Below are positions 4,296 through 56,356 of a stretch of DNA of 64,000 bases, one piece after another. The position numbers were made by a program, and so were the translations under genes. Origin of the DNA: Escherichia coli (lineage in GTDB: Bacteria > Pseudomonadota > Gammaproteobacteria > Enterobacterales > Enterobacteriaceae); NCBI RefSeq assembly GCF_003334355.1, contig NZ_QOWP01000014.1; one strand, written 5' to 3'. The first letter of the stretch is position 1; each line of letters starts with the position of its first letter. Under the pieces are notes generated by a model. That model had not been told where the DNA came from and did not search any database. It worked only from the letters and a program-made list of their open reading frames with translations.

Positions 4296-4512
4296 CTGAT
4301 GCCGCACGTAGGCCTGATAAGACGCGGGCAGCGTCGCATCAGGCATCTTGTGCAAATGTCGGATGCGGCGTGAACGCCTTATCTGACCTACAAAAACAAA
4401 TTTATCAATGAGTTATAAATCCCTGTAGGCCTGATAAGACGCGCCAGCGTCGCATCAGGCATCGTGTGCGAATGTCAGATGCGGCGAAAACGCCTTATCT
4501 GACATACACACG
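4296..4512. repeat. REP/BIME cluster (two REP-pair units) between convergent yacG and mutT
   Basis: Two copies of the motif ggcctgataagacgcg..cagcgtcgcatcaggc and two copies of gatgcggcg..aacgccttatctgac in inverted arrangement; classic enterobacterial REP palindromes. Confidence 0.9.
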
Positions 4513-4904: not shown

Positions 4905-4935
4905 TATAAAAAAGGCGCAGAATCCTGCGCCTTTT
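4905..4935 (-). terminator. Hairpin with flanking A/T tracts between secA stop and mutT start (attenuator/terminator-like)
   Basis: ggcgcag-aatc-ctgcgcc stem-loop flanked by A-run on one side and T-run on the other; sits in the 59-bp secA-mutT spacer. Confidence 0.5.
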
Positions 4936-4952
4936 ACTTTAACAGTTAGCTT

Positions 4953-7658
4953 TTATTGCAGGCGGCCATGGCACTGCTTGTATTTTTTACCAGAACCGCA
5001 CGGGCAAGGATCGTTACGTCCTACTTTGCGCTCTCCAGTTTGCGCCGCCAGTGCAGCTGCGGCTGCAGAGTCGTCATCCTGATGGCTAAGCTGCTGCATT
5101 TGCGCTAAACGCTCGGCTTCCATACGACGCTGTTGTTCCAGCTCCTCAACCTCTTCAGGCATACGTACCTGGACTTTGCTCAACGTGCTGATAACTTCAT
5201 ATTTTAACGACTCCAGCATCGCTGCAAACATGGAGAACGATTCACGTTTGTATTCCTGCTTCGGATCTTTCTGTGCGTAGCCACGCAGGTGGATACCCTG
5301 ACGCAGATAGTCCATCGCTGCCAGGTGCTCTTTCCACAGGGAGTCAAGCGTTTGCAGCATGACGCCTTTCTCGAAGTGACGCATCATCTCAGCACCAACC
5401 ACTTCTTCTTTACGCTGATACACTTCGATGGACTGCGCCAGAATTCGCTCACGCAGCGTCTCTTCATGCAGTTCTGGTTCTTTATCCAGCCACTCGGCAA
5501 TTGGCAAATCGAGGTCGAAATCGTTCTTCAGACGTTCCTGCAGCCCCGGAATATCCCACATTTCTTCCAGCGACTGTGGTGGAATGTAGGCATCAATGGT
5601 CGCTTTGAACACATCTTCACGAATGCTGTTAATGGTTTCGCTCACATCGCTGACATCCAACAGTTCGTTACGCTGGGAGTAAATGGCGCGACGCTGATCG
5701 TTAGCCACGTCATCATATTCCAGCAGTTGCTTACGAATGTCGAAGTTACGGCTTTCAACTTTACGCTGGGCGTTGGCAATCGCTTTAGTCACCCACGGGT
5801 GTTCAATGGCTTCGCCTGGCTTCATACCCAGTTTACGCATCATGCCGGATACTCGGTCGGAAGCAAAAATACGCATCAGCGCATCTTCCATCGACAGGTA
5901 GAAACGGGAAGAACCAGCATCCCCCTGACGACCAGAACGACCGCGCAACTGGTTATCGATACGACGGGATTCGTGACGCTCGGTACCGATGATATGCAGG
6001 CCACCTGCTTCCAGTACCGCATCGTGACGTACCTGCCAGTCGGCTTTAATTTTTTCAATTTGCTCTGCGGTCGGATTTTCCAGCGCGGCAACTTCTGCCT
6101 GCCAGCTACCACCGAGCACAATATCTGTACCACGACCCGCCATATTGGTCGCGATAGTCACCGCAGCCGGATAACCTGCCTGAGCAACAATCGCCGCTTC
6201 GTTGGCGTGGAATTTGGCGTTCAGGACGTTGTGCTTAATACCGGCTTTGGTCAGTTCGTTTGACACCAGCTCCGATTTTTCGATGGAGATAGTACCCACC
6301 AGCACCGGCTGGCCTTTCGCAGTACGTTCTTTGATATCTTCAATGATCGCCTGAATTTTTTCCGCTTCAGTCATGTAGACCAGGTCCGGCAGATCTTTAC
6401 GAATCATTGGACGGTTGGTCGGAACAACGACGGTATCCAGCTTGTAGATTGAGCTAAATTCGAAAGCTTCGGTATCAGCAGTACCGGTCATCCCCGCCAG
6501 TTTTTCATACAGACGGAAGTAGTTCTGGAAGGTGATCGAAGCCAGCGTTTGGTTTTCGTTCTGGATCTGCACACCTTCTTTCGCTTCCACAGCCTGGTGC
6601 AGACCATCGGACCAGCGACGGCCCTGCATGGTACGACCGGTGTGTTCGTCAACGATGATAACTTCACCATCTTTAACGATGTAGTCGACGTCACGGGTAA
6701 ACAGCGCATGAGCGCGCAGCGCCGCCGTTACGTGGTGCATCAGCATGATGTTGGCCGGAGAGTACAGAGACTCCCCTTCATCCATGATGCCCTCTTTCAC
6801 CAGCAGTTCTTCAATCAGCACCAGACCACGTTCGGTCAGGTTCACCTGGCGAGATTTTTCGTCCACCGAGAAGTGGCCTTCGCCCTGGAAGGTTTCGGAG
6901 TCTTCTTTTTCCTGACGGATCAGGTGCGGAATAATTTTATTCACGCGTTTATACATTTCCGAGCTGTCTTCTGCCGGGCCGGAAATGATCAGCGGTGTAC
7001 GCGCTTCATCGATCAGGATGGAGTCCACTTCGTCCACCAGCGCATAGTGCAGTTTACGCTGTACACGTTCTTCAGGGCTGAACGCCATGTTGTCGCGCAG
7101 GTAGTCAAAGCCGTATTCGTTGTTCGTACCGTAAGTGATGTCAGCTGCGTAAGCTTCGCGCTTTGCCGGTGCTGGCATGCCCGGCAGGTTGATACCGACA
7201 GTCAGGCCAAGGAATTCAAACAGCGGACGGTTGTTTTCGGCGTCACGTTGCGCCAGGTAGTCGTTGACGGTAACTACGTGCACGCCTTTACCGGTTAGTG
7301 CGTTCAGGTAAGCAGGCAGCGTTGCGGTCAGGGTTTTACCTTCACCGGTACGCATTTCGGCGATGCAGCGTTCGTTAAGAACCATACCGCCGAGTAACTG
7401 AACGTCGAAGTGACGCATACCAAAGACGCGCTTACTTGCCTCACGTACCACGGCGAAAGCTTCCGGGATCAGATTTTCCAGCACTTCGCCTTTTTCCAGA
7501 CGTGCACGAAACTCTGCGGTTTTCCCTTTCAGTTCTTCGTCGGAGAGTTTTTCCATCTCCGGTTCCATGGCATTGATGATGTTGACCACTTTGCGCATCC
7601 GGCGCAGGGTGCGATCGTTACGACTACCGAAAACTTTAGTTAATAATTTGATTAGCAT
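4953..7658 (-). CDS. secA: Preprotein translocase ATPase SecA
   Basis: 901-aa ORF; DEAD-like motor motifs and C-terminal zinc-binding tail [14 protein letters not shown]. Confidence 0.98.
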
Positions 7659-9480: not shown

Positions 9481-10632
9481 TTAATCAGCTTGCTTACGCA
9501 GGAATGCTGGAATATCCAGATAATCCGGCTCTTTCGCAGTTTGCGGCGCATTGTCATTCACGACTTTAGCAATCGGCTTCTGCTCCTGGGTCAGCGGAGC
9601 CATCCCGTGCTGCTGGTAGCGATCCATCACTGGCTGCTGAACCTGCTTATTGGTCACCAGAGTGATTTCAGGACGTTTGTCCATGCCGATACCTGTCGCA
9701 ACAACAGTTACGCGCAGCTCGTCATTCATATCCGGGTCAAGAGAAGTACCGATAACCACGGTCGCGTTGTCGGAAGCAAATGCACGGATGGTGTTACCTA
9801 CCGTTTCGAACTCATCCAGACGCAGGTCGAAGCCCGCTGTGATGTTAACCAGCACGCCGCGTGCGCCAGACAGGTCGATATCTTCCAGCAGCGGAGAAGA
9901 GATAGCCATTTCAGCAGCTTCTTCCGCACGGTCTTCACCGCTCGCCACGCCAGAACCCATCATTGCGTAGCCCATTTCAGACATTACGGTGCGTACGTCT
10001 GCAAAGTCCACGTTCATCAAACCCGGACGAGTAATCAGTTCAGCGATACCTTGCACAGCGCCTTTCAGTACATCGTTCGCTGCGCCAAACGCATCCAGCA
10101 GGGAGATACCGCGGCCCAGAACTTTCAGCAGTTTGTCGTTCGGGATAGTGATCAGAGAGTCCACATGCTTGGACAGTTCAGTGATCCCCTGCTCCGCGAA
10201 TGCCATACGCTTCTTGCCTTCAAAGTTGAAAGGCTTAGTGACGACAGCAACGGTCAGGATACCCAAATCTTTTGCCACTTCAGCGACGACTGGTGCTGCA
10301 CCTGTACCGGTACCACCACCCATACCCGCAGCAATAAAGACCATGTCTGCACCTTCCAGCGCAGCACGCAATGCATCGCGATCCTCATCAGCCGCATTGC
10401 GGCCAACTTCTGGATTAGCGCCAGCGCCCAGTCCTTTGGTGATACCGCTACCGATTTGAATCGTCTGTCCAACCGCTGTTTTACGCAGCGCTTGTGCATC
10501 GGTATTTACCGCGAAGAATTCAACACCTTCAATGCGCTCACGCACCATGTGTTCAACAGCATTACCGCCGCCGCCGCCGACGCCGATGACTTTAATCACC
10601 GCGTCATTGGTAAGTTCCATTGGTTCAAACAT
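9481..10632 (-). CDS. ftsZ: Cell division GTPase FtsZ
   Basis: 383-aa ORF; tubulin signature GGGTGTG. Confidence 0.98.
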
Positions 10633-10692
10633 AGTTTCTCTCCGATTTGTGCCTGTCGCCTGAGGCCGTAATCATCGTCGGCCTCATAAAAA

Positions 10693-11955
10693 TTAAAACT
10701 CTTTTCGCAGCCAACTATTGAGTCGCTTGATCCACGAGCCAACTGATGCTGTAACACGTTTTTCTACTTCAGCTTCACCGTTAAGATGTGACTCTTTCCC
10801 ATAGTGAAGCAATCCCACCGCCGTCGAATAATACGGCTCCTGAGCATAATCCGTTAAACCGGTAATGTTCAGCGGCGCGCCGATACGCACTTGCGTATGA
10901 AACACGCGCTGAGCACAGGCTGCAAGACCTTCGATCTGCGCTGCGCCACCGGTTAATACAATGCCTGCCGCCAGGTGATGTTTAACCCCTTGTTGGCGAA
11001 GCTTTTCCTGCAACTGCAATATCTCTTCGTTGACCAGGTTGAGCAGCTCGGTATAGCGCGGCTCGATCACCTCTGCCAGGGTCTGACGTTGCAGACTCCG
11101 CGGCGGACGACCACCTACGCTCGGCACTTCCACGCTCTCATCTTTTCCAACGATGGAACCCAGCGCACAACCGTGGCGAACTTTAATCGCTTCGGCGTCG
11201 CTTGGCGGCGTGCCAAAGGCGTAAGCGATATCACTGGTCACGACATTGCCAGCATAAGGAATTACCTTAGTGTGGCGCAATGCCCCACCGGTATAAACGG
11301 CGATATCCATTGTACCACCACCGATATCGACGACGCAGACACCCAGTTCACGTTCATCTTCCGTCAATACCGAATAACTTGATGCCAGTCCGGCAAATAT
11401 CAGTTGGTCAACTTTCAGCCCACAACGTTCAACCGCTTTGACGATGTTTTTCGCCATATCGTTGTGACATGTGATCAGGTGCACTTTTGCCTGCATCCGC
11501 ACGCCCGAAAGTCCTACCGGATTCTTGATCCCTTCCTGATAGTCAATCGCATACTCTTGCGGGATCACATGCAGCACACGATGCTCATCGCGCACACGCA
11601 CCGATTTCGCGGTGTGGACGACGTTTTCCACATCTTCTTGCGTTACTTCTTCTTCAGAAATAGGCACCATACCAATTTCATTCTGGCAGCTGATGTGCTT
11701 ACCAGAAAGCGCCAGATATACCGAAGAGATCTGACAATCTGCCATCAATTCTGCCTGGTCAATGGCGCGTTGTACGCACTTGACCACGGATTCGAGGTCG
11801 TTCACCCCGCCTTTATCCATACCACGCGACGGGCAGCTGCCCACGCCAATGATATTGACCATACCGTCGGGCAGAACTTCCCCTACTAAAGCGGCAACCT
11901 TCGCGGTACCAATCTCCAGTCCTACTACCAGTTTTCTGTCCGTCGCCTTGATCAT
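10693..11955 (-). CDS. ftsA: Cell division protein FtsA (actin-like ATPase)
   Basis: 420-aa ORF; actin/Hsp70 fold motifs; 4-nt overlap with ftsQ. Confidence 0.98.
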
Positions 11956-24539: not shown

Positions 24540-24905
24540 TTATTTTTGCACTACGATATTTTCTTGTGACGGATCAACATGCTGCATTTGCAGCTTTTCC
24601 GTGGCGATCCTTTCCACCCGGCTATGGTCGCCGAGCGCATTCTCTTCAAGGATCAGGTTGCGCCATTCAATGTCTAAAGCATCTCGCTCCAGCACCAGTT
24701 GTTCGCGCTGAGCGGTCAGTAAACGGGTATGGTGCGCCGTGGTTACCACAGTCACCGCCGTCAAAATAATGCAAATGAACAGGCAGAGTGGCAGCTTCCC
24801 AAATCGCAAAAGATCGTCACCGATAACACCAGGCAATGCATGGCGCTCGTGGCTTCCCATCGATCCTTTAACTTTGCTTAGAGCTTCTGTCACTCTGCTG
24901 ATCAT
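24540..24905 (-). CDS. ftsL: Cell division protein FtsL
   Basis: 121-aa ORF; small bitopic coiled-coil protein; between rsmH and ftsI. Confidence 0.94.
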
Positions 24906-25843
24906 GCATTCGTCCTCTCTGCAATACGCAGAACTGAACTACGGGCACGAGGGTTCTCAGCCACCTCTTCTTCGCCCGGCATTAACTTGCCTAGTGCTCG
25001 CAGCTGACGGCCACCCAGTTTTTTGAGCTGCTCTTCAGTCATCGGTAACCCTGCCGGAACTTGCGGACCGCGGCTGTTTTCACGCATAAAACGTTTCACA
25101 ATACGGTCTTCCAGCGAGTGGAAGCTGATGATCGAAAGCCGCCCACCCGGGGCCAGCACGTTGAGCGAGCTTTTTAGCGCCTGCTCTATCTCCTCCAGTT
25201 CACTGTTTACCCAAATGCGCACCGCCTGGAAGGTACGGGTCGCGGGATGTTTAAACTTATCTTTCACCGGCGTTGCAGCAGCCACGACTTCCGCCAGTTC
25301 TTTGGTGCGGGTCATCGGCTGTTCGCGGTTACGCTCGACAATGGCGCGGGCAATGCGTTTGGCAAAACGCTCTTCACCATAGGTTTTCAATACCCAGGCG
25401 ATATCGGCTTCTTCTGCGGTTTGTAGCCATTCAGCGGCTGACTGCCCACGGGTTGGGTCCATACGCATGTCCAGCGGACCATCGCGCATAAAGGAAAAGC
25501 CGCGCTCAGCATCATCAAGTTGCGGTGAAGAGACGCCAAGATCGAGGAGAATGCCGTCGATCTTGCCGATAAGATCGCGCTCGGCAACGTATTCGCCCAG
25601 CGCGGAAAAAGGTCCGTGGATGATGGAGAAGCGCGGATCATCAATAGTCTTCGCAACGGCGATAGCCTGCGGGTCGCGATCGATCGCCAGCAAACGCCCC
25701 TCTTCGCCAAGCTGCGAGAGGATCAGACGTGAGTGACCACCGCGACCAAAAGTCCCATCAATGTAGATGCCATCAGGACGGATATTGAGGCCATTAACGG
25801 CTTCATCCAACAGCACCGTAGTATGTTTATAGTTTTCCATCAT
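24902..25843 (-). CDS. rsmH: 16S rRNA m4C1402 methyltransferase RsmH (MraW)
   Basis: 313 aa from internal ATG ([12 protein letters not shown]...); the 356-aa track ORF is an upstream in-frame extension through mraZ 3' region; SAM-MTase motifs. Confidence 0.93.
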
Positions 25844-25844
25844 T

Positions 25845-26303
25845 TTATAGAGACAAGTCCTGCAGTCGCTCCGATAAGTCTCCGGTAGCCAACTGCTCTG
25901 CGTCGATATCTTCCTTGACCTGTTGATGCCAGGTTGTTTCATCCCACAGCTCAAACTTGTTGAACTGTCCAACCAGCATCACTTCTTTTGTCAGCCCGGC
26001 ATGTTGCCGCAGTACTGGCGCGATTAACAATCGACCTGCGCCATCCATCTGACATTCGCTGGCATGACCTAACAGTAGGCGCTGCACACGGCGCTCAACC
26101 GGGTTCATGCTCGACAGACGCGATAATTTTTGCTCGATAATTTCCCATTCAGGCAGGGGGTAAAGCAGCAGGCACGGGTGATAAATGTCAATGGTGCAAA
26201 CCATTTGACCGGCAGCGTTCTCAAGCAGCTGTTCCCGATAACGGGTAGGCACTGATAAGCGCCCTTTGCTGTCGAGATTGACTAACGTTGCTCCCCGGAA
26301 CAT
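25845..26303 (-). CDS. mraZ: Transcriptional regulator MraZ
   Basis: 152 aa from internal ATG ([19 protein letters not shown]...); first gene of dcw cluster. Confidence 0.94.
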
Positions 26304-26320
26304 GCCAGCCTCACCCCTTA

Positions 26321-26347
26321 TTCCCACTTTGCCCCACAATTTCCCAC
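26321..26347 (-). promoter_or_regulatory. Three direct repeats (GTGGGAA / GTGGGGC / GTGGGAA on the coding strand, 10-bp period) in mraZ 5' leader: MraZ operator repeats / Pmra region
   Basis: Top strand ttcccac-ttt-gccccac-aat-ttcccac at 26321-26347, 18 nt upstream of mraZ ATG; MraZ is known to bind direct TGGGN repeats in its own promoter region. Confidence 0.75.
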
Positions 26348-26858
26348 TGAAAGGAGTTTACGGAGCTGAGGAAAAGCTTGTCAAGCCAGTCACAAGGCAT
26401 ACCGAGGTAAAAAACCCGATGTTTACGGCTAATATCAGCGTTGTTTATTTTACGTCCAACGTGCGAAGCAAATTAACGTTATGAATAGCTGTAAGAAAAA
26501 ATCCCTCATCGTCATCACTGTTTTAAAATGACTCACTATTTTCCACAGCAAATATAAAGTGTCAGTTTGCGACGCGAGCGGCATTTTAGGACATATCTTC
26601 CCCGGTTAACAGTCCTTGTTACGTCTGTGTGGCGCTTGATGCCAGCGGGTTTGCGCAAAAGCAAAGAAAAGTGTTTGTTAAATCGGCAATTCATCGCCGC
26701 ATGTAACAAAATAATGCAAAAACGCGCTGTCGATATCACTTAATTATTGTGAATTTCAGCTGGTGAGTTAATTAACGGGCGGGTTTAAAAGCATTTATCA
26801 ATAATAGTCAGGAATAGTCTTATTTACTTTAAGCATATTGATGTCCAGTCCCGTACTC

Positions 26859-26895
26859 TACGCGCCAGAGGGAAATTCACCTGGCGCGTATTTTT
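26859..26895 (+). terminator. Terminator-like hairpin with T-tract oriented on the top strand, 10 nt from cra stop
   Basis: 10-bp stem tacgcgccag / ctggcgcgta with 12-nt loop followed by ttttt on the + strand; no U-tract in the cra (reverse) orientation. Confidence 0.4.
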
Positions 26896-26904
26896 GTTCG
26901 CGGC

Positions 26905-28582: not shown

Positions 28583-30307
28583 TCAGGTTCTCTCCGTTTT
28601 GCTTAACCACATTTCATCCATTCCGCCCCCGCGAATCTGCATCGGGTAGACGTGCTCGCTGCCATCGACGGTAACATCAACAAACACCAGGCGATTATTG
28701 CGCACCTGTTCCAGCGCCTCGCTAAGTTTGCTTTCCAGCTCATGCGGATGAGAAATCTGGATCCCGACATGCCCATAGGCTTCCGCCAGACGGACGAAAT
28801 CGGGTAGCGATTGCATATAAGATTGTGAATGACGGCCGGAATAGATCATGTCTTGCCACTGCTTCACCATCCCCAGATAGCGGTTATTGAGATTCACCAC
28901 CAGTACGGGCAACTCGTATTGCAACGCGGTAGACAGTTCCTGGATGTTCATCTGAATACTGCCGTCGCCAGTGACGCAAACCACGGTTTCTTCTGGCAAC
29001 GCCATTTTGACGCCCAGTGCCGCAGGTAAACCAAAACCCATCGTGCCGAGGCCACCGGAATTGATCCAGCGACGCGGTTTGTCGAATGGATAATAAAGTG
29101 CAGCAAACATCTGGTGCTGCCCGACATCGGACGTCACGTAAGCGTCTCCCTTCGTCAACCGCCAAAGAGTCTCGATCACCGCCTGCGGTTTAATCTTTTC
29201 ACTGTGAGTGTCATATTTCAGGCACTGACGAGCGCGCCACTGTTCAATTTGCTGCCACCAGTCGCGGATCTCATCCAGCGGTTGATGGGCGGATTCTTGC
29301 GACAAGAGTTCAAGCATTTGTTCGAGGACCTGGCGAGCATCCCCCACAATCGGGATATCCGCAGTCACGGTTTTAGAAATGGAAGTAGGATCAATATCGA
29401 TATGCAGAACAGTGGCATTTGGGCAGTACTTTGCCAGATTGTTCGTCGTTCGGTCATCAAATCGTACCCCGACGGCGAAAATCACATCCGCGTTATGCAT
29501 CGTCATATTGGCTTCGTAGGTACCGTGCATTCCCAGCATGCCCAGTGCCTGACGATGCGTTGCCGGAAACGCCCCCAGCCCCATCAATGAGCAAACAACG
29601 GGCAGATTCAACGCCTCCACCGTTTCTTTCAACTGCTGATGGCAGCCCGCCGTGATTGCCCCACCGCCTACGTAGACAACCGGTTTTTTTGCCGCTACCA
29701 GCGTTTGCAGAGCACGCTTAATTTGCCCTTTATGTCCGGTAGTAGTGGGATTGTAAGAACGCATACTGACCGACTCCGGCCAGACATAGGGTAATTTGTT
29801 CGCCGGATTAAGAATATCTTTCGGTAAATCAACGACTACTGGTCCTGGGCGACCACTTGCCGCCAGCCAGAAAGCCTTTTTCAGCACCTGCGGAATGTCT
29901 TCCGTTTGCTTAACCAGAAAACTGTGTTTAACCACCGGTCGCGAAATCCCCACCATGTCGCACTCCTGAAAGGCATCGTAACCTATCAACGAGGTCGCTA
30001 CCTGCCCGGAAAGGACAACTAATGGAATGGAATCCATATAAGCGGTGGCGATGCCAGTAATCGCATTGGTCGCCCCTGGACCCGACGTTACCAGCACGAC
30101 GCCGACTTCCCCGGTCGCGCGCGCCAGGCCATCGGCCATATGCACCGCCGCCTGCTCATGACGAACTAATACATGATCAATACCACCCACGGTATGCAAT
30201 GCATCATAAATATCAAGGACTGCGCCTCCGGGATAACCGAATACTTGTTTAACGCCCTGATCGATAAGCGATCGGACGACCATCTCGGCTCCAGACAACA
30301 TCTCCAT
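28583..30307 (-). CDS. ilvI: Acetolactate synthase III large subunit
   Basis: 574 aa from internal ATG ([14 protein letters not shown]...); ThDP-binding motifs. Confidence 0.95.
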
Positions 30308-30624
30308 GGCCTGCCTCACTGTTTGACGGAAAAAATGTGTAAAACACATTAACCGTCCGATCTTGCTTAAGCAATTGGCAGCCAGAGACATAAACACGGG
30401 GTAATAAGAATAAACAGGAGGAAAGGTGAAAAGAAACGATAAAATCCTCCATTACAGAGGATTAAATTGATAATAAATCGGCTGAATCCCACAACTTACA
30501 GCAATTTCTCTATTTTTTTAATTAATCCTAAAATAGAGAGCCCACACATTCAGAATAAAATTCTACATTCAATAAAAAATGCAGAATAAACCAGACATTC
30601 ATGTCTGACCTATTCTGCAATCAG
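30308..30624 (-). promoter_or_regulatory. ilvIH promoter region with multiple AT-rich Lrp-type sites
   Basis: AT-rich 317-bp spacer with repeated cagaataaa-like motifs resembling Lrp consensus; ilvIH is an established Lrp-activated operon. Confidence 0.55.
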
Positions 30625-32060: not shown

Positions 32061-32228
32061 TAGTTAAGCAGAAATTAATATCGCTTACTTTAACCACCGC
32101 AGCACAATTAGCTAATTTTACGGATGCAGAACTCACGCTGGCGGGACGTTTTTATTGCGTCAGGGTTGACATCCGTTTTTGTATCCAGTAACTCTAAAAG
32201 CATATCGCATTCATCTGGAGCTGATTTA

Positions 32229-32315
32229 ATGACTCACATCGTTCGCTTTATCGGTCTACTACTACTAAACGCATCTTCTTTGCGCGGTAGACGAGTGAGC
32301 GGCATCCAGCATTAA
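32229..32315 (+). CDS. leuL: leu operon leader peptide
   Basis: 28-codon [31 protein letters not shown] with four consecutive CUA Leu codons; followed by attenuator hairpin. Confidence 0.9.
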
Positions 32316-32338
32316 GCCAGCACGCAGTCAAACAAAAA

Positions 32339-32365
32339 ACCCGCGCCATTGCGCGGGTTTTTTTA
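32339..32365 (+). terminator. leu attenuator (intrinsic terminator)
   Basis: acccgcgc-catt-gcgcgggt stem-loop followed by 7 T, 24 nt after leuL stop and 43 nt before leuA. Confidence 0.9.
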
Positions 32366-38343: not shown

Positions 38344-38570
38344 AAAAAAAACCAGCAGGTATAATCTGCTGGCGGGTGATTTTACACCAATACTCAGTCA
38401 CACATGATGCAGGCAAGTCAACTTTCAGAATTGCGGTCATCCCACTGCATCAGTCCTTCAAGCATGGTTAATCGTTGTGGGACGCTTAACCAACGCAACC
38501 AGCACAACTTCGCTGTCGCGGTAAAATAGTGCTGATAAAACTGACGCATGGGGCACCTCCTTGCTTCATC
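38344..38570 (-). ncRNA. sgrS: Dual-function small RNA SgrS (glucose-phosphate stress)
   Basis: Reverse strand shows the SgrS 3' region ...gcatcatgtgtgactgagtattggtgtaaaatcacccgccagcagattatacctgctggtttttttt (ptsG-pairing segment plus terminator); contains sgrT ORF; divergent from sgrR; 5' end approximate. Confidence 0.88.
38418..38549 (-). CDS. sgrT: Small protein SgrT (glucose transport inhibitor) encoded within SgrS
   Basis: 43-codon ORF MRQFYQHYFTATAKLCWLRWLSVPQRLTMLEGLMQWDDRNSES inside the sgrS transcript. Confidence 0.85.
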   Translation of the reverse strand: MRQFYQHYFTATAKLCWLRWLSVPQRLTMLEGLMQWDDRNSES

Positions 38571-40321: not shown

Positions 40322-40420
40322 TAACGCCGTTCTCAACGGGGTGCCACGCAAACGCGTGCGCTGAGAAAATACCCGTCGAACCTGATCCGGATAACGCCGG
40401 CGAAGGGATTTGAGGCTCCT
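40322..40420 (+). promoter_or_regulatory. sroA: TPP riboswitch (THI element; sroA) in thiBPQ leader
   Basis: Conserved THI-box core ggggtgcc...gctgagaaaatacccgtcgaacctgatccggataacgccggcgaagggatttg about 40 nt upstream of thiB start. Confidence 0.88.
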
Positions 40421-40456
40421 TCTCAAGTCCTTTGCCACTCTTTTTTGAGGTGCAAA

Positions 40457-49105: not shown

Positions 49106-49375
49106 GCCGCATCAGGTATGTAACGCCTGATGCGATGCTGGCGCGTCTTATCAGGCCTACACGTTGCGATTTTGTAGGCCGGATAAGCAAACCGCATCCG
49201 GCATTCAACGCCTGATGCGACGCTGGCGCGTCTTATCAGGCCTACGCGTTCCGATTTTGTAGGCCGGATAAGCAAAGCGCATCCGGCATTCAACGCCTGA
49301 TGCGACGCTGGCGCGTCTTATCAGGCCTACACGCTGCGATTTTGTAGGCCGGATAAGCAAAGCGCATCCGGCACG
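49106..49375. repeat. Tandem BIME array: three copies of an about 85-bp REP-containing unit between araA and araD
   Basis: Unit cgcctgatgcgacgctggcgcgtcttatcaggcctac..cgattttgtaggccggataagcaaagcgcatccggcattcaa repeats with 85-bp period (motif gcgcgtctta at 49141, 49226, 49311). Confidence 0.92.
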
Positions 49376-56261: not shown

Positions 56262-56356
56262 CGCAGTTCGGTAGGCGGATAAGGCGTTCACGCCGCATCC
56301 GGCAATTGTGCGCCGATTGCCTGATGCGACGCGGCCGCGTCTTATCAGGCCTACAG
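56262..56356. repeat. REP pair between convergent rluA and djlA
   Basis: gcggataaggcgttcacgccgcatccggca and gcctgatgcgacgcggccgcgtcttatcaggcctac REP motifs. Confidence 0.88.

What the first reader, a model, noticed from the sequence alone, without database searches (positions are those of the whole stretch)
26321..26347. Triplet of 10-bp-phased GTGGG(A/G) direct repeats in the mraZ leader
Three direct repeats spaced exactly one helical turn apart lie between the expected Pmra promoter and the mraZ ATG. This is the arrangement described for MraZ autoregulatory binding. The ORF-track N-terminal extension of mraZ would run through these repeats, which supports the shorter 152-aa start.
Basis: partly seen in the sequence, partly recalled or inferred. 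Interest (0 to 1): 0.25.

Follow-up and report, generated by a model that had tools for sequence, protein, structure and literature searches.

The report
Known MraZ operator at E. coli Pmra
The three 10-bp-spaced GTGGG repeats are real and are the already described binding site through which the MraZ repressor shuts off its own promoter and the first cell-division genes of E. coli, so the finding is correct but ordinary.

Summary
The window is E. coli chromosome (100% to NZ_CP025851, 99.9% to K-12), in reverse orientation to K-12. On the minus strand, which is the mraZ sense strand, GTGGGA, GTGGGG and GTGGGA lie at 26347-26342, 26337-26332 and 26327-26322. The period is exactly 10 bp. The first repeat begins 8 nt after a strong sigma-70 promoter (TTGACA-18-TAAACT), and the last ends 19 nt before the mraZ ATG at 26303.

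The pattern is unique in the window and appeared in 0 of 100 shuffles. In 79 mraZ loci from other gammaproteobacterial species, 70 carry GTGG-N6-GTGG-N6-GTGG and 77 carry GTG-N7-GTG-N7-GTG within 200 nt upstream. All are on the sense strand at period 10. None occur at periods 7-9 or 11-13, on the antisense strand, or inside rsmH.

The protein is a full-length MraZ equivalog with the conserved DNA-contact residues K13, R15 and R91. Published work (Eraso 2014 as cited in held papers; a 2026 cryo-EM study of M. genitalium MraZ on DNA) describes this arrangement as the MraZ autorepression site.

The 152-aa start is correct. A canonical G-quadruplex motif overlaps the repeats, but it is E. coli-specific (0 of 79 species) and is not favoured by folding.

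Verdict: observation confirmed, interpretation supported, already known, low interest.

The parts
26379..26384 (-). Pmra -35 hexamer TTGACA
   Evidence: Consensus scan. Invariant CTTGACAA block across 34 Enterobacterales sequences.
26355..26360 (-). Pmra -10 hexamer TAAACT (18-nt spacer)
   Evidence: Consensus scan. The CCGTAAACT block is nearly invariant in Enterobacterales. The transcription start was not measured here; it is inferred at about 26348 +/- 2.
26342..26347 (-). MraZ box 1, GTGGGA
   Evidence: The GTGG core is invariant in 34 Enterobacterales sequences.
26332..26337 (-). MraZ box 2, GTGGGG
   Evidence: The GTGG core is invariant in 34 Enterobacterales sequences. The TTG of the mechanical 164-aa ORF (26339-26337) overlaps this box.
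26322..26327 (-). MraZ box 3, GTGGGA
   Evidence: The GTGG core is invariant in Enterobacterales. The fifth base is G in E. coli but T in E. albertii and Citrobacter.
26309..26317 (-). Shine-Dalgarno region GGGGTGAGG of mraZ
   Evidence: Read directly from the sequence. It ends 5 nt before the ATG. Partly conserved in Enterobacterales.
25845..26303 (-). mraZ coding sequence, 152 aa plus stop; it encodes the repressor that reads the boxes
   Evidence: TIGR00242 equivalog; D11/K13/R15 and D87/R91 are conserved.
24902..25843 (-). rsmH (mraW), first downstream gene of the regulated dcw operon
   Evidence: RefSeq annotation of the matching E. coli record, mapped onto window coordinates.

Best explanation
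This is the operator of the E. coli dcw (mra) promoter Pmra. It consists of three direct GTGG(G)N boxes at a 10-bp period on the sense strand, starting 8 nt after the -10 hexamer. That places them at roughly +1 to +27 of the transcript.

MraZ is the product of the gene immediately downstream. It binds as an oligomer, with one subunit per box. Each subunit inserts its SpoVT/AbrB-type 'cradle' (K13, R15, R91 in E. coli numbering) into successive major grooves on one face of the helix. Occupancy next to the -10 hexamer and over the inferred start site hinders RNA polymerase at Pmra. This gives negative autoregulation of mraZ and repression of the promoter-proximal dcw genes (rsmH, ftsL, ftsI and onward).

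Shown here:
- the anatomy of the site and its statistical non-randomness;
- strict conservation of core, period, strand and promoter-proximal position across Gammaproteobacteria;
- conservation of the DNA-contact residues in the protein.

Taken from the literature: direct binding and repression in E. coli, and one subunit per box in M. genitalium.

Inferred: the exact transcription start, the E. coli stoichiometry, and steric hindrance as the mode of repression.
For: 1. Sequence and statistics. There are three exact GTGGGR boxes at a 10-bp period, unique in the window, with 0 of 100 shuffles matching.
2. Position. The boxes lie directly downstream of a 10/12 sigma-70 promoter and 19-44 nt upstream of the mraZ ATG.
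3. Comparative test on 79 loci from other species, from E. albertii to Pseudomonas, Shewanella, Pasteurellaceae and Methylococcaceae. GTGG x3 at period 10 is present in 70 of 79, and GTG x3 in 77 of 79. Counts are 0 at periods 7-9 and 11-13, 0 on the antisense strand, and 0 in 200 nt of rsmH. Shuffled upstream regions give a mean of 0.005 loci. The two exceptions still carry two exact GTGG boxes plus ATGG boxes in phase.
4. Phylogenetic footprint in 34 Enterobacterales sequences. The -35, the -10 and the three GTGG cores are invariant islands, while the spacers and the DNA upstream of the -35 vary. The promoter-operator block is the most widely alignable part of the 601-bp intergenic region.
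5. Within E. coli, the 40-nt operator is identical in 4843 of 5424 genomes and has 1-2 mismatches in 580. In the five variants sampled, the substitutions seen (two positions) fall outside the boxes; the one change that touches a box is a 5-bp deletion in strain WS3294A.
6. Protein. TIGR00242 MraZ equivalog. D11, R15 and R91 are invariant and K13 nearly so in 42 diverse homologues. The protein aligns to the M. genitalium MraZ chains solved with DNA, with K13/R15 and R86 (M. genitalium) matching R91 (E. coli).
7. Literature. E. coli MraZ binds the repeated sequence downstream of the Pmra -10 and represses mraZ through murC (PMC7761207; PMC8475190). B. subtilis uses three GTGG[A/T]G boxes with 4-nt spacers that are required for repression (bioRxiv 2022.02.09.479790). 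Cryo-EM shows one MraZ subunit per GTG(G/T) box, contacted by Lys13, Arg15 and Arg86 (PMC12957436).
Against: Nothing found here contradicts this explanation. The limits are as follows.
- The primary E. coli paper (Eraso et al. 2014, PMC4010979) is not held, so binding and repression rest on how other papers cite it.
- The transcription start was not measured.
- The 79 loci are homologous, not independent, so the counts overstate statistical independence. The contrast with the diverged spacers and flanks answers most of that concern.
- About 28 E. coli genomes have an unexamined mismatch in the central part of the operator. They matched in blastn but not in megablast.
Confidence: 0.95

Rival explanations
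1. The G-rich repeats together with the Shine-Dalgarno G-run form an intramolecular G-quadruplex (GGG-N7-GGGG-N6-GGG-N5-GGGG, 26345-26314, minus strand). It would form in the non-template DNA or in the mRNA leader and would modulate transcription or translation of mraZ. This is analogous to the G4 reported in the S. aureus PmraZ promoter.
For: A canonical G3+ / loop <=7 motif is present exactly here. [quoted passage not shown]
Against: The canonical motif is absent from all 79 other species, including E. albertii and Citrobacter, where box 3 is GTGGTA. What is conserved is GTGG at a 10-bp period, not G3 tracts. The fifth base of the boxes is G in only 47, 38 and 22 of 70 loci. G4-aware ViennaRNA folding of the leader returns the same non-G4 structure at -11.3 kcal/mol. 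Three other canonical motifs occur in the same 64-kb window, so the motif is not rare.
Confidence: 0.04
2. The repeats act at the RNA level as a structured or protein-bound 5' leader element of the mraZ mRNA, rather than as a DNA operator.
For: By inference from the -10 position, the boxes lie in the transcribed leader.
Against: The leader folds no better than shuffles (z = -1.19; 22 of 200 shuffles fold at least as well). No Rfam family matches here at gathering threshold. Conservation is of short cores at a DNA helical period with variable spacers, which does not fit a paired RNA structure.
Confidence: 0.01
3. The repeats are a chance or compositional feature, or they belong to a longer 164-aa MraZ coding sequence that starts at TTG 26339.
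For: A mechanical ORF from TTG 26339 does run through boxes 2 and 3.
Against: Chance is excluded: 0 of 100 shuffles match, and shuffled upstream regions give 0.005 loci against 70 observed. Coding is excluded on four grounds. Homologues begin at MFRG aligned to residue 1. Nearly all close relatives are 152 aa. RefSeq uses the ATG. The repeat-to-ATG distance differs by 9-11 nt between genera.
Confidence: 0.005

Closest known systems
E. coli MraZ operator at Pmra (three direct repeats between Pmra and mraZ; Eraso et al. 2014, J Bacteriol 196:2053)
   Same: It is the same locus. The 40-nt operator is 100% identical to K-12 at 89584-89623, with the boxes at 89590-89615 and the mraZ ATG at 89634. 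The position downstream of the -10 matches what held papers cite.
   Different: Nothing. From memory, Eraso et al. wrote the repeat as TGGGN with 5-nt spacers. That is the same register shifted by one base; it could not be checked because the paper is not held.
B. subtilis MraZ binding repeats (MBRs): GTGG[A/T]G x3 with 4-nt spacers
   Same: Three boxes, a GTGG core, a 10-bp period, a position in the mra promoter, and a requirement for repression.
   Different: The fifth base is A/T rather than G, and the organism and promoter context differ.
Mollicutes MraZ site (AAAGTG[T/G]-N3)x3-4, with the M. genitalium cryo-EM complex (PDB 9qlr, 9qlg, 9sx6 and related entries)
   Same: Same 10-bp period and GTG core, with an A-rich stretch before boxes (CAAAGTGGG in E. 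coli). The transcription start lies in or next to box 1. The contact residues Lys13, Arg15 and Arg86 correspond to K13, R15 and R91 in E. coli.
   Different: M. genitalium has four boxes and E. coli has three exact ones. The fourth phased position in E. coli is GGGGTG, which overlaps the SD. The proteins are distant (phmmer E = 8e-12), and the E. coli oligomeric state was not examined here.
B. cenocepacia PmraBc MraZ site
   Same: The repeats lie downstream of the -10 and overlap the transcription start, 'as in E. coli'.
   Different: There are four repeats of 7 nt with 3-nt spacers.

Membership tests
MraZ operator (MraZ boxes / MBRs) of the dcw promoter | At least three direct repeats with a GTG(G/T) core | tested here: met
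   The boxes are GTGGGA, GTGGGG and GTGGGA.
MraZ operator (MraZ boxes / MBRs) of the dcw promoter | 10-bp start-to-start period (six nucleotides between 4-nt cores) | tested here: met
   The spacing is exactly 10 and 10 bp. Across 79 species, only period 10 is found.
MraZ operator (MraZ boxes / MBRs) of the dcw promoter | Located immediately upstream of mraZ (first gene of the dcw cluster), at or just downstream of the promoter -10 / transcription start, on the sense strand | tested here: met
   The boxes start 8 nt after TAAACT and end 19 nt before the ATG. The gene order is mraZ-rsmH-ftsL-ftsI. No antisense occurrences were found in 79 loci. The transcription start itself is inferred.
MraZ operator (MraZ boxes / MBRs) of the dcw promoter | Conserved in orthologous loci while the flanks diverge | tested here: met
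   70 of 79 loci carry GTGG x3 and 77 of 79 carry GTG x3. The cores are invariant among variable spacers in 34 Enterobacterales sequences.
MraZ operator (MraZ boxes / MBRs) of the dcw promoter | Cognate MraZ protein with two DXXXR motifs and the Lys13/Arg15/Arg86-equivalent contact residues | tested here: met
   TIGR00242 at 227 bits. D11, R15 and R91 are invariant, and K13 and D87 are at least 90% conserved.
MraZ operator (MraZ boxes / MBRs) of the dcw promoter | Direct binding by purified MraZ, and box-dependent repression of Pmra | not testable with these tools
   Reported for E. coli by Eraso et al. 2014 as cited in PMC7761207, PMC8475190 and bioRxiv 2022.02.09.479790. The primary paper is not held.
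Promoter / 5'-UTR G-quadruplex | Four G>=3 tracts with loops of 1-7 nt | tested here: met
   The motif lies at 26345-26314 on the minus strand.
Promoter / 5'-UTR G-quadruplex | Motif conserved in related species, if it is functional | tested here: not met
   0 of 79 loci have the motif.
Promoter / 5'-UTR G-quadruplex | G4 thermodynamically preferred or biophysically demonstrated | tested here: not met
   ViennaRNA with G-quadruplex folding enabled returns the non-G4 minimum free energy structure for the RNA leader. DNA G4 biophysics cannot be tested here.

The most novel reading that the evidence does not exclude
In the E. coli lineage only, a T-to-G change in box 3 (GTGGTA in E. albertii and Citrobacter, GTGGGA in E. 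coli) completes a canonical four-tract G-quadruplex motif. The motif spans the three MraZ boxes and the Shine-Dalgarno G-run. The operator could therefore double as a lineage-specific G4 switch that competes with MraZ binding or masks the ribosome-binding site.
Probability: 0.04. Interest if true: 0.35.

Novelty: already known. Interest (0 to 1): 0.07.

Why it matters
MraZ autorepression at Pmra sets the transcription level of the promoter-proximal cell-division and cell-wall genes, including ftsL and ftsI. The site has been a textbook-level feature of E. coli since 2014, and a homologue now has a structural explanation. Re-finding it shows that the first-stage reader can recognise a real operator from sequence alone, but it adds no new biology. 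The comparative numbers produced here are a clean independent confirmation of published logos, not a discovery. They are 77 of 79 gammaproteobacterial species with strictly 10-bp phased, sense-strand GTG cores next to the -10.

Tried and rejected
1. Primary literature. I tried to read Eraso 2014 (PMID 24659771 and PMC4010979), Hara 1997 (PMC179470) and Mengin-Lecreulx 1998 (PMC107448). None is held. The exact published repeat notation and the mapped transcription start could therefore not be checked. A full-text search for 'MraZ' plus 'TGGGN' found nothing.
2. Related-locus scan. It was repeated with 10 closer sequences.
3. G-quadruplex reading. Considered and rejected as the conserved function.
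4. RNA-structure reading. Rejected: z = -1.19 and no Rfam hit.
5. N-terminal extension. Rejected.
6. Other MraZ-type sites. I searched the window for further double or triple phased GTGG sites; there are none outside this operator.
7. Generic repeat finder. Run on the intergenic region, it does not report the 6-nt boxes because they are shorter than its 10-nt minimum length.
8. Variant genomes. I could not enumerate the roughly 28 E. coli genomes whose operator has a central mismatch (the difference).

Full report
**Identity of the window.** The 1060 bases from the cra stop codon to the mraZ stop codon match 5424 of 5426 complete E. coli genomes. They are 100% identical to NZ_CP025851 and 99.9% identical to K-12. 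The window is reversed relative to K-12, so ftsI, ftsL, rsmH, mraZ, cra, ilvH and ilvI all lie on the minus strand. RefSeq annotates mraZ as a 459-nt gene, which is 152 aa plus stop. This corresponds to window 26303..25845 on the minus strand.

**The observation.** Read on the minus strand, the sequence is:

TTGACA(26384-26379)-18 nt-TAAACT(26360-26355)-CCTTTCA-GTGGGA-AATT-GTGGGG-CAAA-GTGGGA-ATAA-GGGGTGAGG-CTGGC-ATG(26303).

The three boxes are at 26347-26342, 26337-26332 and 26327-26322, exactly 10 bp apart. The degenerate pattern, allowing one mismatch, is found once in 128 kb of sequence (both strands) and in none of 100 dinucleotide-preserving shuffles. The relaxed two-box pattern GTGG-N6-GTGG also occurs nowhere else in the window. 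Two corrections apply: the motif reads as written on the minus strand, and the span is 26322-26347.

**What it is: comparative test.** I collected MraZ homologues and aligned them. I then fetched 80 mraZ loci from one-genome-per-species bacterial assemblies. They range from E. albertii (95% protein identity) to Pseudomonas, Shewanella, Aeromonas, Pasteurellaceae, Psychromonas and Methylococcaceae (about 50%). In the 200 nt upstream of mraZ in the 79 usable loci:
- GTGG-N6-GTGG-N6-GTGG is present in 70.
- GTG-N7-GTG-N7-GTG is present in 77.
- The same cores at periods 7, 8, 9, 11, 12 or 13 occur in 0 loci.
- The antisense strand gives 0, and 200 nt of rsmH give 0.
- Shuffled upstream regions give a mean of 0.005 loci.

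The two loci that fail still carry two exact GTGG boxes plus ATGG boxes in phase. In every locus the boxes sit just after a recognisable -35/-10 pair.

A MAFFT alignment of 34 Enterobacterales upstream regions shows invariant islands at CTTGACAA, CCGTAAACT and the three GTGG cores. The spacers, the fifth and sixth box positions and everything upstream of the -35 vary. By blastn, the promoter-operator block is the most widely alignable part of the 601-bp cra-mraZ intergenic region, aligning in 31-32 loci against 1-16 elsewhere. These loci are homologous rather than independent, so the counts are not probabilities. Even so, conserved cores among diverged spacers, strictly one period and one strand, are the signature of a protein-binding site read on one face of the helix.

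**Within E. coli.** The 40-nt operator is identical in 4843 genomes. It has one or two mismatches in 580 genomes and is truncated in one. In five sampled variants the substitutions lie in the promoter spacer and at the base before box 1, not in the boxes. About 28 genomes have a central mismatch that I could not enumerate.

**The protein.** The 152-aa product scores 227 bits against the NCBIfam MraZ equivalog TIGR00242, whose cut-off is 98. In 42 homologues down to 36% identity, G4, D11, R15, R91 and W120 are invariant. F2, K13, G14 and D87 are at least 90% conserved. These residues make up the two DXXXR motifs. The protein aligns to the M. genitalium MraZ chains solved with and without DNA. 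E. coli K13 and R15 match M. genitalium K13 and R15, and E. coli R91 matches R86.

**Literature.** Held papers state the following.
- The B. subtilis site is three GTGG[A/T]G boxes with 4-nt spacers and is required for repression (bioRxiv 2022.02.09.479790).
- The Mollicutes site is (AAAGTGK-N3)x3 (PMC5282649).
- Cryo-EM of M. genitalium MraZ on its four-box DNA shows one subunit per GTG(G/T) box. Lys13, Arg15 and Arg86 sit in the major groove, and the octamer ring opens to fit the boxes (PMC12957436).

The primary E. coli paper is not held.

**Mechanism.** The best-supported model has an MraZ oligomer occupying three consecutive major grooves on one DNA face, from about +1 to +27. This hinders RNA polymerase at Pmra and gives negative autoregulation and repression of the proximal dcw genes. 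The anatomy, the conservation and the contact residues are shown here. Binding and repression come from the literature. The exact transcription start, the stoichiometry and the steric mode of repression are inferred.

**Start codon.** The mechanical ORF from TTG 26339 (164 aa) runs through boxes 2 and 3. The 152-aa ATG start is supported by four lines of evidence:
- Homologue N-termini align at MFRG.
- Close relatives are almost uniformly 152 aa long.
- RefSeq uses this start.
- A 9-11-nt length difference between box 3 and the ATG among genera (44-45 nt against 53-55 nt) is incompatible with coding.

**Rival explanations.**
- G-quadruplex. A canonical motif (GGG-N7-GGGG-N6-GGG-N5-GGGG, 26345-26314) overlaps the boxes and the SD, and a G4 has been claimed for S. 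aureus PmraZ (PMC11796246). However, none of the 79 other species has the motif, G4-aware folding does not select it, and the conserved unit is GTGG, not GGG.
- RNA leader structure. This is not supported: z = -1.19 and there is no Rfam match.
- Chance and coding. Both are excluded as described above.

**Verdict.** The feature is the already known E. coli MraZ operator, so interest is low.

Noticed in passing
L002 (E. coli WS3294A, NZ_CP035819.1 3576673-3576978), equivalent to window 26345-26349: One of 5424 E. coli genomes carries a 5-bp deletion (CAGTG). It removes the GTG of MraZ box 1 and the likely transcription start, leaving two intact boxes. This could be a natural operator/promoter mutant or an assembly error.
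   Followed up: partly
window 26314-26345 (-): A canonical G-quadruplex motif is formed by the three MraZ boxes plus the Shine-Dalgarno G-run. It is specific to E. coli and absent from all 79 other species examined, because box 3 is GTGGTA even in E. albertii and Citrobacter.
   Followed up: yes
window 26304-26321 (-); L007-L051: The distance from box 1 to the mraZ ATG is 44-45 nt in Escherichia, Citrobacter and a few allies, but 53-55 nt in most other Enterobacterales. The difference is a roughly 10-nt indel between box 3 and the SD. In the longer forms, the fourth phased position carries a weak (A/G)GGT.
   Followed up: partly
L054-L086 (Pseudomonas, Stutzerimonas, Amphritea, Methylococcaceae and related loci): In these lineages a fourth phased box, GTG(T/C), overlaps the end of a conserved TATAGT -10 hexamer. 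The operator there has four boxes and reaches into the promoter itself.
   Followed up: partly
window 26859-26890: A perfect 10-nt inverted repeat (TACGCGCCAG / CTGGCGCGTA, 12-nt loop) lies just downstream of the cra stop. The T-run follows it only on the + strand, which is antisense to cra. The cra-sense side has an A-run before the repeat and no T-run after it.
   Followed up: no
window 26400-26610 (-): About 200 bp upstream of Pmra can be aligned in 12-16 enteric genera, although no gene is annotated there. The distal part of the intergenic region (26620-26900) is alignable in only 1-3 loci. The function was not examined.
   Followed up: no
window 4311-4504, 4908-4977, 10624-10713, 32215-32364, 38344-38570, 40327-40426, 49262-49327, 56273-56351: Rfam gathering-score hits elsewhere in the window are: naRNA4/REP-type elements (four copies), STnc40, PssrA (a family described as a plasmid-encoded Shigella sRNA, here on the chromosome), the leucine operon leader, SgrS and a TPP riboswitch.
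   Followed up: no
window 24902-25972 (-) and 28583-30397 (-): The mechanical ORFs for rsmH (356 aa from a TTG) and ilvI (604 aa from a GTG) are longer than a plausible gene product. RefSeq annotates rsmH at 313 aa; the 574 aa I recall for ilvI is from memory and was not checked. These are the same kind of ORF-track N-terminal extension artefact as the 164-aa mraZ ORF.
   Followed up: partly
E. coli genome collection: Three of the 5424 matches to the mraZ promoter region lie on records labelled as plasmids, and two complete genomes have no match at all. Neither was examined.
   Followed up: no
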